The translations under genes and the position numbers were made by a program. Source: Gekko japonicus (Eukaryota). From it: 53,468 nt of DNA. Of the stretch, positions 2 to 8,093 are shown piece by piece; position 1 is the first letter of the stretch; each line of letters begins with the position of its first letter. The stretch spans positions 459,980-513,447 of the forward strand of contig NW_015171544.1 in NCBI RefSeq assembly GCF_001447785.1, in the 5' to 3' direction. A model generated the notes under the pieces. It had not been told where the DNA came from and did not search any database. It saw nothing but the letters and a program-made list of their open reading frames with translations.

Positions 2-121
2 CTGGAGCAGCTGAGGGCGATGGGCTTCCCCAGCCGAGAACGCAACCTGCAGGCGCTAATCGACACAGAAGGAGATATCAGTGCAGCCATTGAGAAACTA
101 ACCCATGCCGAAATCTCCTAA
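2..121 (+). CDS. 3' end of a ubiquilin gene (C-terminal UBA domain), UBQLN3/UBQLNL-like; 5' part outside window
   Basis: Frame 2 reads [43 protein letters not shown], matching the ubiquilin UBA consensus (QLEQLxxMGFxNRExNLQALIxTxGDxxAAIExL) with the MGF motif. It has no ATG in the window, so it is absent from the ORF track. Confidence 0.9.
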
Positions 122-294
122 CCACAGAAGAGTTACCTTTGCCTCTTGTAGGGTCGCCAGACACACTAAAGTCAGCATGGTGGATATTAACGGTGGCGTG
201 TGCACGTGGCTCCTTTGCCGAGGCCAGGATCCTGGCTGCCAGAACAGCGGGGCTGGGGGGGCACGAGGCTCGTCCGTTCTCTTGCACTGCTCTG

Positions 295-494
295 CACTGT
301 TCCCTCTAAGCTGACTTAGTGTGAGCTAGCTCACAGTTTTTTAGCCTCTGGCTCACACATTTTTAGCTCAGGACACATGGCTCTAGAGCAAGCTAATTTA
401 TGCAGCAGGCAAATCGCTCGCTCACAACTTTAATGACAGTAGCTCACAAAGTAGAATTTTTGCTCACAAGACTCCACAGCTTAGAGGGAACATC
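295..494. mobile_element. About 200-bp MITE family with TIR cagtgttccctctaagct (other copies near 2362-2569, 15488-15693, 20135-20250 partial, 25374-25452 partial, 29906-30111, 40570-40953, 42209-42712, 52148-52356)
   Basis: Many dispersed copies with terminal inverted repeats gttccctctaagct / agcttagagggaac and internal tgtgagc repeats. Confidence 0.8.
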
Positions 495-822
495 AGTTGC
501 GCTTTGGGGGGGGGGACAGTTTCCTGGCTAGATTCCCCAGGGGCCTTAGAAACCGAGTGCCGGGAGGCCCCCACTTGACTGAAGCTCCCCACTCCACTCC
601 TTAGTTAGGGGCTGGAAGTCCTCCTCGAGCTCCTGTGCAGCACTGGAGGGATTGTTTTGCCCGGAGGACAGATGGTGCCTAATGATGTGGGCGGGGCCTT
701 GGGGGAGGTCTTCCAGCATCTGTCCTTCCAGCTGTGAGCCTGCTGCATTGGTCTTCAGGTTGCCAGCCTTCCGGTAGGCATACAAAATATATATATATAT
801 CACTGTGTACAATAAACATGCC

Positions 823-1166
823 AGGAGCTGCGGTGGCTCAAGGGGTTAAGACGCTGAACTGCAGGCTGTGGAAAGTCGGTAGTTCGGCAGTTCGAGACCC
901 GAGTGCGCCGCATGACGGAGTGAGCTCCCGTCTCTGGTTCCAGCTCCTGCCAACCTAGCAGTTCGAAAGCAAGACATTGCAAGTAGATAAATAGGTACCA
1001 CTTCGGTGGGAGGGTAACAGCGTTCCATGCGCCTCGGCATCTAGTAATGCTAGCCGCATGACCACGGAAACATCTTCGGACAGCACTGGCTCTTTGGTGA
1101 TGAGCACCACAACCCTAGAGTCAGATTCGACTGGCTTTTGAGCAAGGGAACCTTTACCCTTACCTT
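823..1166 (+). mobile_element. Sauria SINE (Squam1)
   Basis: tRNA-like head, body cagctcctgccaacctagcagttcgaaagc, ACCTTT tail; TSD tacaataaacat at 808-819 and 1167-1178. Confidence 0.9.
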
Positions 1167-1679
1167 TACAATAAACATATGTTTACAGTAAAACATTTTT
1201 ATGCTTTATTCTTTGTCTTTTTTGTATTTTTTCAATATTGTTGTCTAAATATTGGTATCAAATATTATCAAATATATATTTCACCCAAACAATACATCGA
1301 GTGCAGGTTTACATTCAGACAGCACCTTGTCAGTAATGCTATCGCTAGTCCCACGGGGAGTCTAGTAATTTACCCGTTTCGGATTAATCTTTTTCAAGGA
1401 CCGTGATGTTTATATAAAGGACATAAGGCGCCTTGAAAAAGATTCATTCGAAACGGGTAAATTACTAGAGTCCCCGCTGGACTAGCAAATAGTATTACTG
1501 ACAAAGTGCTGTCTGAATGTAAACCTGCACTCGATGTATCGTTTGGGTGAAACATTTTTCTCTATGTATTGTTTGGGTGAAATATTTGATACCAATATTT
1601 AGACAACAATATTGAAGAAATATGAAAAGAAAAAGAATAGAGGATAAAATTGTTTTGCTGTAAACACATGTTTATTGTA

Positions 1680-5052: not shown

Positions 5053-5139
5053 CTGAGGCAACTTGATGGCACGTTCCACCCCCACAGATATAGAGGGACA
5101 TGTGCCCGGTTTGGTTTTCTCTGGGGACAAAACACATCG

Positions 5140-5850
5140 TTATCAAATCTGCAGATGACACAAAGCTGGGTGGGATGGCTCATTCTGAAGAAGACAGAGT
5201 CAGGATTCAAAATGATCTAGATAGGCTGGAACGGTGGGCTGAGACCAATAAAATGAATTTCAATAGAGAGAAGTGCAAAGTCCTGCACTTAGGTGCAAAA
5301 AATCAAAGGCACAGATATAGAATGGGAGGGACTTGGCTTGACAGCAGCACCTGTGAAAAGGATCTGGGTGCTCCGGTTGATCACAAGCTAAACATGAGCC
5401 TGCAGTGCGATGTGGCTGTGAAGAAAGCTAATGCGATCTTAGGATGCATGAACAGCAGCATCGTGTCCAGATCACAGGAGGTGGTAGTTCCGCTCTATCC
5501 TGCTATGGTCAGGCCTCACCTGGAGTCCCGTGTCCAGTTTTGGGCACCACATTTGAGGAAGGATGTTGACAAGCTCGAGCGTGTCCAGAAGAGGGCAACC
5601 AGGATGGTGAGAGGTTGGAGTCCAAGTCTTACGAGGAAAGGCTGAAAGAGTTGGGTCTGCTTAGCCTGGGAAAGAGAAGGCTTAGAGGGGGCATGATTGC
5701 AGTCTTCAAGTATCTGAAAGGCTGTCATGTAGAAGATGGAGCAGATCTATTCTCTCTTGCTCTGGATTGCAAGACTAGGTCTAGTGGGTGGGGATGACAA
5801 GGGAGTCGTTACCTGCTATATACCAGGAGAAACTTCCTAACTGTAAGAGT
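5140..5850 (+). mobile_element. CR1 LINE ORF2 (RT C-terminal) fragment, frameshifted
   Basis: IKSADDTKLGG...IQNDLDRLERWAETNKMNFNREKCKVLHLG...VRPHLE..VQFWAPH. Confidence 0.92.
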
Positions 5851-6820
5851 GGAAGCGAAAAGCGGTGGGAGATATCCATGAGTATTTAAGCAACTAAACA
5901 GCATGTAAGCAATTTTCAGAGCCGGGGAGAAAACGATTTTATATTGGAATTAAAGTGTAAAAATGGCGGACACTCCAAAAAAGTCAGCAAAAACAACTCC
6001 GAGAAGAAGGGAAGTTATAGAACTCATAGCAGAAGCCATCAAGCCAATTCTTGAGCAACTTGTTGGTATTAACCATCAGTTTGCCAAGATAAATCAACAA
6101 CTCGTGTCTCGGCAGCTGCATTTGGCAACAATAGAAGAAAAGATGGAACAGAGGGCTGTCAAAGCAAAAGAGATGGACACTAAAACTAATAGCGATTTCA
6201 AAGAGACAAGGAGGGAAAGCATGAGAGAAACAGAAAAGATTTACAAGGACTTAACTCCTTCCCGGCAGATGTTTTTAGAAAGTGTTGTCTTAAATTCGGT
6301 TGATAGAAAAGAGCTTGAACCTGACCTCAAGATCAAGAAGCCTGTGAGATGCCACTGGGCCCCGAGGATGAGACCAAGAAGGAAGAGGCTTAAGATTGGC
6401 GGTGTTATCCCTTTGGAGACGGAGGAGGGTTGCAGAATTTCAAGTGAACGTCTAAAAAGCCATTAAGACTTTAGAGAGAATTAGCATAGATGTAAAGGCG
6501 GAAGGACTCTGAAAATTGCCCTTATGAAGAGAGCTAGAGGAGATGCTCTGGAAATCTTCTCATAACAAGTAATAAACTAACACATAAGCTTAGAAAGACA
6601 GGATCTCACAAAGTATATTGTTTATTAACAGGGTTTTTTCCCCATTACTAACTGCAGTCTAACAGGGTAATGATCTCCTACTCTTGGGTTTTTAGTTTGG
6701 TGTGGGTTACTTTCCTTTCTCCTTAGTTGTAGTTCCCCTTCCCTTTTTTCTTTTCTTTGTAGTTTATGTAGTATTATAAAAAATTAAAAAATCCCCTCCG
6801 GGGGTCTTTAAAAAAAAAAG
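5851..6820 (+). mobile_element. Poly(A)-tailed element with a single 167-aa coiled-coil ORF (5963-6466); L1 ORF1-like/non-autonomous
   Basis: A-rich ORF with heptad-like N-terminal half, T-rich 3' region, A-run near 6810; replaces the CR1 3' end. Confidence 0.45.
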
Positions 6821-7148
6821 AATGCCTTCCTGGACAATTCTGGTTTGCACATTCTGTGGGATGGCATAGCTACGTGGGAGCCCTCCTGATGTCCTTAGGC
6901 AGGCTGTGCCACAATTTGGGGGGCCCCACAGAGAAGGCGGTGAGCAGGCAGTGGCTCATCTTGCCCATCTGGAGGGAGGAGGAACCTTCAAAAGGCTTTG
7001 CCCAGGGAGGGGAAGTTGTCCTGGCAGAGCATAGCAGGAGAGCCGGTCCTGCGGGGGATGTGGGTCCCGGGACAGATGTGAAGGGCTCTGTAAGTAACCA
7101 GCAGGACCTCTCCTTGCTGCTGTTGGGGATCGGCCACCCAGTGCAGTA

Positions 7149-8093
7149 TCAGAAGCGCTTCCCCAAGAACAGGCGTGTGATCCCTTCCCGAATCAGCTTC
7201 GTTTTCACCCCGTAGATGATGGGGTTCAGCATGGGGGGGACGATCACGTAGAGGTTGGCCAGCAGGATGTGGACGTGGCGGGGGATCTGGTGACCAAACC
7301 GGTGGGTAATGAAGGAGAAGAAAGCAGGGGTGTAGAACATCAGTATGACACAGATGTGAGACCCACAGGTGTCCAGGGCCTTGTGGCGGGCTTCTTTGGT
7401 CGGGAGCCGGAAGATGGCACGGACGATCAGCACGTAGGACGCACAGATGAGCATGGAGTCGATCCCCAGAGTGGACATAGCAGCGGTCAAGCCATACACC
7501 ACATTGACAGTGATGTCGGCGCAGGCCAGGCGCGCCACCCCCATGTGCTCGCAATAGGTGTGCGGGATGACCTGGCGTCCGCAGTAGGGCAGCCTGCGCA
7601 GGAGGAAAACCAGGGTCACCACGGCCGAGAAAGCCCGCAGGAAAGACGCCAGCCCTACCCTCCGGATCACCGCGTGCGTCAAGATGGCCGCGTGCCTCAG
7701 GGGGTGGCAGATGGCCACGTAGCGGTCAAAGGCCATAGCCAGCAGAATGGCAGACTCCATGGCGGAGACGAAGTGGATGAAAAACACCTGGGCAAGGCAG
7801 GCCCCGAAGGAAATGGCCCGGGAGTGGAACCAGAAGATGCCGAGGGCCTTGGGGACCGTGGTGCAGGACAACACCACGTCGGTGGTCGCGAGCATGGCGA
7901 GGAAGACGTACATCGGCTGGTGGAGGGCGGGCTCCAGGGCGATGGCCACCGTTAGCACCAGGTTGCCCAGCAATGCCACAGCGTACATGAGGCACAAGGG
8001 GATAGCGAACCAGAGGTGGAACTCCTCCAGGCCCGGGATGCCGATGAGGAAGAACCACTGGGGAACCAGGCTGCTGTGGTTGGCAGCGGGCAT
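7149..8093 (-). CDS. Class I olfactory receptor, OR52-type, 314 aa (MPAANHSS...), intact
   Basis: Motifs LHQPMYVFL, MAFDRYVAICHPLRH, HTYCEHMGVARLAC, KALDTCGSH, HRFG, PPMLNPIIYGVKTK and an N-glycosylation site NHS. A pyrimidine tract and AG acceptor (tctcttttccaccag, AG at 8142-8141) lie just upstream, so the longer ORF-track start is probably intronic. Confidence 0.95.
   Translation of the reverse strand: MPAANHSSLVPQWFFLIGIPGLEEFHLWFAIPLCLMYAVALLGNLVLTVAIALEPALHQPMYVFLAMLATTDVVLSCTTVPKALGIFWFHSRAISFGACLAQVFFIHFVSAMESAILLAMAFDRYVAICHPLRHAAILTHAVIRRVGLASFLRAFSAVVTLVFLLRRLPYCGRQVIPHTYCEHMGVARLACADITVNVVYGLTAAMSTLGIDSMLICASYVLIVRAIFRLPTKEARHKALDTCGSHICVILMFYTPAFFSFITHRFGHQIPRHVHILLANLYVIVPPMLNPIIYGVKTKLIREGITRLFLGKRF

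What the first reader, a model, noticed from the sequence alone, without database searches (positions are those of the whole stretch)
2..8093. Ubiquilin (UBQLN3/UBQLNL-like) gene directly beside class I OR52/OR51 genes in a reptile
Seen: a ubiquilin UBA C-terminus (LEQLRAMGF...AAIEKL) ending 7 kb from an OR52-type gene, convergent with four class I ORs. Known: human UBQLN3 and UBQLNL are testis-expressed ubiquilins with intronless ORFs among OR51/52 genes near HBB, and are generally regarded as mammalian innovations. Inference: the R in LEQLR and the EKL ending look more like UBQLN3 than UBQLN1/2/4, so the ubiquilin-in-OR-cluster arrangement may predate the mammal-sauropsid split. This would also place the window near the squamate beta-globin region. 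The UBA also carries unusual substitutions (FPSRER, IDTEGD).
Basis: partly seen in the sequence, partly recalled or inferred. Interest (0 to 1): 0.72.

Follow-up and report, generated by a model that had tools for sequence, protein, structure and literature searches.

The report
Gecko counterpart of mammalian testis ubiquilins
This gecko DNA holds the end of an intact ubiquilin gene that sits with a second ubiquilin between smell-receptor genes in the same order as human UBQLN3 and UBQLNL, so these testis genes, published as mammalian inventions, likely arose before mammals and reptiles split; a role in sperm cells of reptiles is predicted, not shown.

Summary
Observation confirmed. The window starts in the last 39 codons of a 592-codon ubiquilin ORF (gene A) with no intron from UBL to UBA; UBQLN1 and UBQLN4 are multi-exon genes on other scaffolds. 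About 12-15 kb upstream lies a second, UBA-less ubiquilin (B), then an OR52B2-like gene. The order OR51s-OR52-A-B-OR52 mirrors human OR51I-OR52D1-UBQLN3-UBQLNL-OR52H1. A and B occur in squamates, turtles, alligator and birds. A-type sequences are already in Marin's 2014 alignment, likely his 'sauropsid-specific UBQLN6'. B shares derived residues with UBQLNL and is its sister in 4 of 5 trees; A is sister to UBQLN3 in 4 of 5, weakly. AU tests reject a gecko-UBQLN1 retrocopy but not a mammal-only clade, so gene order carries the argument. Beta-globin is on another 37.5-kb scaffold, which carries an OR nested in the window's OR51 clade; the left part of our scaffold is FGGY/HOOK, beyond a gap. Testis expression is untested. 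Verdict: a known gene kind, re-dated to the amniote ancestor.

The parts
2..121 (+). 3' end of ubiquilin A: UBA domain and stop codon. The rest lies upstream of the window: whole ORF G000:C11834:458322-460100 (592 codons, no intron; UBL 21-90, hydrophobic segment 172-192, STI1-type region from 213, acidic tract about 496-545, UBA 549-586), with a predicted leader exon (ATG 458005) and 158-base intron (458133-458290). Further upstream, also outside the window: UBA-less ubiquilin B (445065-446282 and 447486-448409, + strand, 692 bases duplicated across an N gap; CRE palindrome at 444818) and an OR52B2-like gene (438423-439379, + strand).
   Evidence: splicing of the leader not observed
7149..8093 (-). 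OR52-type gene convergent with A; sister to the upstream OR52 among 30 gecko class I ORs (100/98); nearest Atlas clusters OR52D1-, 52H1-, 52M1-like
22289..23236 (-). OR51-type gene, member of a 5-row clade that includes an OR on the beta-globin scaffold
36849..37850 (-). OR51-type gene, same clade
49218..50195 (-). OR51-type gene, same clade

Best explanation
The window opens in an intact ubiquilin ORF with no intron from UBL to UBA that lies in tandem with a UBA-less ubiquilin between two OR52-type genes; the pair is likely the reptile counterpart of the mammalian UBQLN3/UBQLNL/UBQLN5 cluster, likely born as a UBQLN1 retrocopy in the class I OR array before mammals and reptiles split, and is predicted to serve as a ubiquitin shuttle and chaperone in spermatids. 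Shown: ORF, domains, lack of internal introns, tandem partner, gene order, sauropsid-wide orthologs. Inferred: retroposition from UBQLN1 (loss of all coding introns, tree position); tandem duplication on the amniote stem; B = UBQLNL lineage (about 0.85); A = UBQLN3 lineage (about 0.55); A = Marin's UBQLN6 (about 0.85). Predicted working: the UBA would bind ubiquitin (M560 and G561 kept in 44 of 44 orthologs, F562 in 42), the STI1 region would bind hydrophobic clients gated by the strengthened internal hydrophobic segment, the UBL would dock on the proteasome, perhaps with altered affinity in squamates (K48-equivalent to E, V70-equivalent to F), and the A-specific acidic tract might hold basic clients. 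Testis-restricted expression (about 0.7) rests on the mammalian counterparts, not on data from this gecko.
For: Single 592-codon ORF against at least 9 coding exons over 39 kb (UBQLN1, C11796) and 15 kb (UBQLN4, C12303). Gecko order OR51 x3, OR52, A, B, OR52B2-like against human OR51I1, OR51I2, OR52D1, UBQLN3, UBQLNL, OR52H1, OR52B6 (table in PMC3484066); A, B and the upstream OR share a strand, as UBQLN3 and OR52H1 do relative to TRIM6 in the mammalian rows seen (PMC10709114 table S2). A and B records give the same longest-contig length in 12 of 13 other species where both have one, including a 115,462-base snake contig; one painted-turtle contig holds three ubiquilins in Marin's alignment; Gekko kuhli tags A and the OR52 ortholog 073740 and 073748. 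Trees: B+UBQLNL 81/89, 94/80, 97/97; A+UBQLN3 83/89, 81/80; a mammal-only clade in 0 of 300 and a sauropsid-only clade in 0 of 300 bootstrap trees; the whole cluster as one branch out of UBQLN1 94/91 and 90/95. B and UBQLNL share V and R in the UBL (9 of 9 and 4 of 4; 0 of 11 A, 0 of 4 UBQLN3, 0 of 9 UBQLN1) and W after the last STI1 helix. A with gecko UBQLN1 is rejected, p-AU 0.007. An OR on the beta-globin scaffold nests in the window's OR51 clade, 100/100.
Against: AU tests do not reject a mammal-only clade: p 0.233, 0.138, 0.078-0.118 for three such trees. All cluster genes are long branches and may attract. A+UBQLN3 falls to 63/33 and SH-aLRT 17, and the free tree puts A with a turtle-only paralog and B with UBQLN5. 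Most A-UBQLN3 likeness is ancestral; UBQLN3 shares two derived residues (E in IEQG, W) with B and UBQLNL, not with A. The flanking ORs were typed by database names and Atlas neighbours only; no mammalian OR was in a tree. No globin, and no olfactomedin, is on this scaffold; left of an N gap at 434.4 kb it carries FGGY and HOOK exons at lower GC, which are not 11p15 genes (recalled). Raw RNA runs X3-X5 (3-12% read, tissue unknown; X3 and X4 laid on A, X5 on B) gave no reads over the ORFs apart from cross-mapping at the UBA and a trace (mean depth 0.67 in one 100-base bin, X4).
Confidence: 0.8

Rival explanations
1. Same amniote-old cluster, but A is not the UBQLN3 ortholog: it is a separate ancient paralog (UBQLN6 proper) that mammals lost, while sauropsids lost UBQLN3 or keep it as another copy. 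This differs from the best reading only in the naming of A.
For: The tree A,(U3,(B,L)) is only 1.1 log-likelihood units worse, p-AU 0.60; A+turtle D is as good as the free tree, p-AU 0.75; UBQLN3 shares IEQG and W with B and UBQLNL; A has an acidic tract (net -14 to -22 per 40 residues in 44 of 44) that the four UBQLN3 lack (-4 to -6).
Against: A is sister to UBQLN3 in 4 of 5 trees and holds UBQLN3's place between the UBQLNL-like gene and the convergent OR52; both have V in PMLNAVQ (9 of 11, 3 of 4; 0 of 9 UBQLN1).
Confidence: 0.38
2. Marin's scheme: the sauropsid genes are an independent duplicate (UBQLN6), and the mammalian trio arose after the split; both sets sit among class I ORs by separate retroposition.
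For: Published (PMC4230246); AU tests do not reject a mammal-only clade; long branches can fake the pairings.
Against: Needs two insertions between OR52-type genes with the same order of an UBQLNL-like and a second gene; B-UBQLNL shared derived residues; 0 of 300 bootstrap trees hold either clade. In the parts of the paper read, synteny of the sauropsid genes was not examined ('olfactory' occurs once, in an expression table).
Confidence: 0.12
3. A gecko- or squamate-specific retrocopy of UBQLN1/4, or an assembly artefact that put a ubiquilin next to ORs.
For: The scaffold has many gaps, a duplicated piece of B and a composition break at 434.4 kb.
Against: A orthologs in turtles, alligator and birds form one clade 100/100; A+gecko UBQLN1 rejected; no N between the A stop and the OR52; Gekko kuhli tags agree.
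Confidence: 0.02

Closest known systems
UBQLN6 (Marin 2014, PMC4230246)
   Same: Divergent reptile and bird ubiquilins; the paper's alignment holds duck, pigeon, turkey, alligator and turtle sequences of the A type, turtle B type and a third turtle type.
   Different: The paper calls it a sauropsid-specific duplicate; the supplement parts seen do not label which rows are UBQLN6. Here the set resolves into at least four lineages (A, B, C, turtle D), with A and B in the gene order of the mammalian cluster.
Mammalian UBQLN3
   Same: UBL-STI1-UBA, place next to the OR52 that borders the OR51s, weak sister grouping, retained GGY and RTENR-PLPNPW motifs.
   Different: A is only 35-42% identical over the alignment, has an acidic tract and a more hydrophobic internal segment, lacks the long Pro/Ser insert of rodent UBQLN3 and its IEQG and W residues; expression unknown.
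Mammalian UBQLNL (and UBQLN5)
   Same: Gene B shares UBL V/R, GGD, NPK, IEQG and W with UBQLNL and holds its place beside the upstream OR52.
   Different: B ends before the UBA in the squamates, green turtle and alligator aligned (an emu model keeps a degenerate remnant), while marsupial, platypus and mustelid UBQLNL keep it. No UBQLN5 ortholog was found in this gecko.
UBQLN1/2/4 shuttle chaperones
   Same: Domain plan; UBA M-G-F and UBL I44/H68 equivalents kept; a segment that may be an internal hydrophobic 'placeholder' (concept from PMC13083928; the correspondence is my inference).
   Different: No coding introns, 38-43% identity, second STI1 region shortened, squamate UBL changes.

Membership tests
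Ubiquilin family | N-terminal UBL | tested here: met
   PF00240 51.3 bits over cut-off 25.4; best PDB ubiquilin hits 2klc, 1j8c, 2nbv, 1wx7
Ubiquilin family | Central STI1-type region | tested here: met
   PF23195 84.6 bits; helical but low confidence in the model
Ubiquilin family | C-terminal UBA | tested here: met
   PF00627 22.8 bits over 22.4; three helices, pLDDT 76-82
Ubiquilin family | Binds ubiquitin and proteasome | not testable with these tools
   Only residue conservation checked
UBQLN1 or UBQLN4 | Multi-exon coding region and placement in the UBQLN1/4 clades | tested here: not met
   Single ORF; true UBQLN1 and UBQLN4 on C11796 and C12303
UBQLNL group (UBQLN3, UBQLNL, UBQLN5) | Tandem ubiquilins without coding introns | tested here: met
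   A and B in tandem. That the mammalian ORFs lack introns is recalled; tandem layout is from PMC4230246
UBQLNL group (UBQLN3, UBQLNL, UBQLN5) | Between OR52-type genes with OR51s beyond | tested here: met
   subfamily-level only
UBQLNL group (UBQLN3, UBQLNL, UBQLN5) | Flanking ORs orthologous to OR52D1 and OR52H1 | tested here: inconclusive
   Both flankers return the same three Atlas clusters; no mammalian OR in a tree
UBQLNL group (UBQLN3, UBQLNL, UBQLN5) | Linked to beta-globin | tested here: inconclusive
   Different scaffolds; shared OR51 clade
UBQLNL group (UBQLN3, UBQLNL, UBQLN5) | Groups with mammalian members in trees | tested here: inconclusive
   Best trees interleave sauropsid and mammalian genes; AU does not reject a mammal-only clade
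UBQLNL group (UBQLN3, UBQLNL, UBQLN5) | Testis-specific, post-meiotic expression | not testable with these tools
   Tissues of the runs unknown; lays uninformative
UBQLN3 (one-to-one) | Exclusive sister group with mammalian UBQLN3 | tested here: inconclusive
   4 of 5 trees, support 17 to 89; A+L, A+UBQLN5, A+D not rejected
UBQLN6 of Marin 2014 | Divergent reptile/bird ubiquilin outside the five main classes | tested here: met
   A-type rows in supplement S1; the label itself was not visible, long runs of tree file S2 were cut

The most novel reading that the evidence does not exclude
One UBQLN1 retrocopy landed in the class I OR array on the amniote stem, the same array that received beta-globin, and had already split into UBQLN3, UBQLNL and UBQLN5 lineages before mammals and sauropsids parted: an amniote-wide spermatid ubiquilin cluster. 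In sauropsids gene A became a charge-specialised chaperone whose conserved acidic tract holds basic nuclear proteins during sperm chromatin exchange while its UBA and UBL route them to the proteasome, and B, having lost the UBA, acts as its regulator.
Probability: 0.15. Interest if true: 0.72.

Novelty: new member of a known kind. Interest (0 to 1): 0.48.

Why it matters
The standard account (PMC4230246, still cited in 2023) treats the testis ubiquilins as a mammalian expansion, with UBQLN3 and UBQLN5 younger than the monotreme split. If the reading here holds, the cluster dates to the amniote ancestor, UBQLN6 is not a separate sauropsid invention, and many reptile and bird 'ubiquilin-1-like' annotations are mis-named. 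Single knockouts of Ubqln3 and Ubqlnl in mice are reported as dispensable (reference titles and a passage in PMC8899140); retention across all amniote lineages argues for redundancy or a subtle selected role. The genes are also anchors for ordering the fragmented beta-globin/OR region of reptiles. It revises a family history; it is not a new mechanism.

Tried and rejected
Expression: no RNA holder listed. X1 contigs (related organism, RNA only guessed, depth 2-6) cover most of A and B, but one runs unspliced through the predicted leader intron, so they may be DNA or pre-mRNA; not used as evidence. Olfactomedin as an extra synteny marker (its place beside UBQLNL is recalled): 0 of 20 matches on this scaffold. 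Globins: 0 of 10 matches on this scaffold. A first coding-potential scan of the left scaffold found nothing I could name; a splice-aware scan found FGGY and HOOK exons, 5 of 9 exons sent got a Pfam hit. The structure model is low confidence (mean pLDDT 52, pTM 0.22), so no fold search and no claim on placeholder docking. No complex prediction was sent: UBA with ubiquitin is a textbook pair. A divergent teleost ubiquilin and its unnamed relative (P0242, P0300) did not join the cluster with any support in a quick tree, so no older origin is claimed; absence from amphibians was not tested beyond the 150 representatives listed. The second alignment did not finish and is not used. Earlier scan notes: one unrelated note, then none.
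Full report
Observation. The window begins in frame +2 with the last 39 codons of a ubiquilin (stop 119-121), 7,027 bases from the stop of an OR52-type ORF on the other strand; three further class I ORs follow, all on the minus strand. The window is G000:C11834:459980-513447. Database rows identical to neighbouring proteins are named Gekko japonicus and give this scaffold's length.

Gene A. Upstream DNA extends the frame to a 592-codon ORF, C11834:458322-460100, with UBL, a ubiquilin STI1-type region and UBA above their Pfam cut-offs. 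It has no intron, whereas the same sequence is spread over at least nine exons in gecko UBQLN1 (C11796, 39 kb) and UBQLN4 (C12303, 15 kb). A GT-AG intron of 158 bases is predicted in the leader; splicing would bring an upstream ATG in frame, as in a Gekko kuhli model, and its donor would explain a 'WYV' stretch shared with turtle and alligator N-terminal extensions. So the gene is likely two-exon with an intronless UBL-to-UBA region; splicing was not observed. The first 103 of 120 listed homologs are squamate, turtle, alligator and bird proteins or unnamed rows, mostly labelled ubiquilin-1- or -2-like; 43 were aligned and up to 10 placed in trees, where they form one clade with A at 100/100.

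The cluster. 12-15 kb upstream on the same strand is gene B, a UBL+STI1 ubiquilin without UBA, partly duplicated across an assembly gap; upstream of it is an OR52B2-like gene. B has orthologs in squamates, turtles, alligator and palaeognath birds, and among 55 hits its next relatives include 7 marsupial UBQLNL. A and B records share a longest-contig length in 12 of 13 other species with both values; the exception is a gecko with short contigs. The human order is HBE1, OR51B-Q, OR51I1, OR51I2, OR52D1, UBQLN3, UBQLNL, OR52H1, OR52B6, TRIM6 (PMC3484066, one table passage), UBQLN3 lying about 236 kb upstream of HBE (PMC1910613, passages). The gecko order read from the right is OR51 x3, OR52, A, B, OR52. 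The two flanking OR52s are sisters among 30 gecko class I ORs and both return OR52D1-, H1- and M1-like Atlas clusters, which types them to subfamily only. That human OR52D1 converges on UBQLN3 is recalled.

Phylogeny. Mammalian UBQLN3, UBQLNL and UBQLN5 were obtained and named (UBQLN5 and platypus UBQLNL identified by likeness to rows of Marin's alignment). From 69 rows 54 were kept for 333 conserved columns (near-duplicates, two UBQLN4 rows with bad ends, truncated gecko B and a few others dropped). LG+G4: A+UBQLN3 83/89, B+UBQLNL 81/89, whole cluster 94/91 inside UBQLN1. C20 mixture on 46 rows: 81/80, 94/80, 90/95; mammal-only and sauropsid-only clades in 0 of 300 bootstrap trees. Without C, D, UBQLN5 and platypus (33 rows, 484 columns): B+UBQLNL 97/97, A+UBQLN3 63/33. 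With extra long branches, quick tree: 64 and 17. The fast free tree (39 rows) had A with turtle D and B with UBQLN5. AU tests reject A with gecko UBQLN1 (0.007) but not a mammal-only clade (0.233, 0.138, 0.078-0.118), nor A with UBQLN4 (0.094), UBQLNL, UBQLN5 or D. Residue counts agree: B and UBQLNL share several derived states, A and UBQLN3 mostly ancestral ones plus one V; UBQLN3 shares E and W with B and UBQLNL. Trees alone are thus suggestive; trees together with gene order make an amniote-old cluster likely. The pairing by position and the pairing by tree coincide, and these are independent lines.

Beta-globin. No globin is on this scaffold (0 of 10 matches). Two beta-type genes lie on C6308 (37,542 bases), with an OR51I1-like gene and a gap-truncated OR that is 72% identical to the window's last OR51 and nests in the window's OR51 clade at 100/100. 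Beta-globin flanked by ORs in sauropsids and its move to a new place in the amniote ancestor are published (PMC5786229, passages). Against wider synteny: left of a gap at 434.4 kb the scaffold carries FGGY and HOOK at lower GC; misjoin or breakpoint is unresolved.

How it likely works. The UBA keeps M560 and G561 in 44 of 44 orthologs, F562 in 42 and L586 in 44; D574 and E576 are lineage-wide acidic changes, S564 is private to this gecko. The UBL keeps the I44 and H68 equivalents (44 and 43 of 44), has L for P at 26 in all 44, and in squamates E at the K48 and F at the V70 equivalent (23 and 25 of 25). Two features are specific to A: a hydrophobic segment at 172-192 (hydropathy 1.6-1.9 in five A proteins against 1.1 in UBQLN1/4; 90% conserved in squamates) and an acidic tract before the UBA (net -14 to -22 per 40 residues in 44 of 44, against -3 to -7 in the 18 other ubiquilins checked). 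The model folds UBL and UBA, leaves the acidic tract disordered and is unreliable elsewhere. By established ubiquilin biology A would bind ubiquitin-tagged and hydrophobic clients and pass them to the proteasome; internal hydrophobic sequences gate the STI1 groove in UBQLN2 (PMC13083928, passages), and the segment may do the same. Mammalian counterparts are spermatid genes (PMC4230246). A perfect CRE sits 247 bases before B (10 in 511 kb; none before A or C), a weak lead. Read-laying did not settle expression.

What is known. Marin 2014 (PMC4230246; read: parts 1-3 of 9 of the text, passages, first part of the Discussion, passages and part 16 of supplement S1, part 1 of S2 with long runs cut) names UBQLN6 as a sauropsid-specific duplicate and dates the testis trio to mammals. 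His alignment already holds A- and B-type reptile and bird rows, three ubiquilins on one turtle contig. 'UBQLN6' occurs in 1 paper of the library. Searches listed no paper linking the sauropsid genes to the mammalian locus (listings seen, not all papers read); the library lacks most subscription journals, and bioRxiv supplements were closed. Database labels hint at it (RefSeq 'ubiquilin-3-like' on three gecko B proteins, UniRef 'Ubiquilin like' on a tortoise D), so automated orthology resources may already group them. Also seen as passages: PMC6677749, PMC10709114 (plus three rows of table S2), PMC8314043, PMC8899140, PMC10076021.

Verdict. A real, conserved gene of a known kind. The new part is the synteny-based re-dating of the testis ubiquilin cluster to the amniote ancestor (about 0.8), with B as UBQLNL and A as UBQLN3 or its ancient sister. 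Interest 0.48.

Noticed in passing
G000:C11834:434435-434762 (about 25 kb upstream of the window): GC rises from about 0.42 to 0.51-0.57 across this N gap; to its left lie FGGY (first coding exon 406322-406522, minus) and HOOK exons (66-108 kb). Either a scaffolding misjoin or a real breakpoint.
   Followed up: partly
G000:C620:146437-147870 (L070:6437-7870): A third intronless, UBA-less ubiquilin (C, 477 aa) on a scaffold with 8 class I OR matches at 6-99 kb and a SCAN-like ORF near 105 kb (by eye); relatives in another squamate, a softshell turtle and rhea form a clade 100/100; in rhea it shares a chromosome length with A.
   Followed up: partly
L005:5569-6260 and 7540-8231: 692 bases of gene B are duplicated at 99.4% across an N gap; RefSeq models the truncated 405-aa piece, other geckos have single ORFs of 441-465 aa; a 734-base contig C72758 gives the same UBL match as B's start.
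   Followed up: partly
P0201 (XP_038627191.1): An echidna 'ubiquilin-3-like' groups with UBQLN3 at 100/99-100, against the published absence of UBQLN3 from monotremes.
   Followed up: partly
P0107, P0176, P0108: Gar, a halosaur fish and a chimaera sequence (the last two named ubiquilin-4 by a source) fall on the UBQLN1 side (93/95; 96/86 for gar and chimaera), against the statement that ray-finned fish have only UBQLN4.
   Followed up: no
P0197: A tortoise paralog (D) resembles the third ubiquilin on the painted-turtle contig in Marin's alignment; its place is unstable (with UBQLN5 60/63, with A).
   Followed up: partly
G000:C4514:525159-525395 and 543071-543307; C5526:2001277-2001510: Three similar globin exons, one next to the alpha-type genes and two on another scaffold; they look like globin Y (name recalled, not tested), i.e. 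possible extra copies.
   Followed up: no
G000:C10761:14092-14250: A beta-type globin stretch with two stops, possibly a pseudogene; no OR match in the first 20 kb of that scaffold.
   Followed up: no
window 5100-5645, 13793-14281, 45632-47148: ORFs that read like LINE reverse-transcriptase fragments (CR1- and RTE-like; recognised by eye, not scanned).
   Followed up: no
window 811: First AATAAA after the A stop, 690 bases downstream, beyond a repeat at about 294-493.
   Followed up: no
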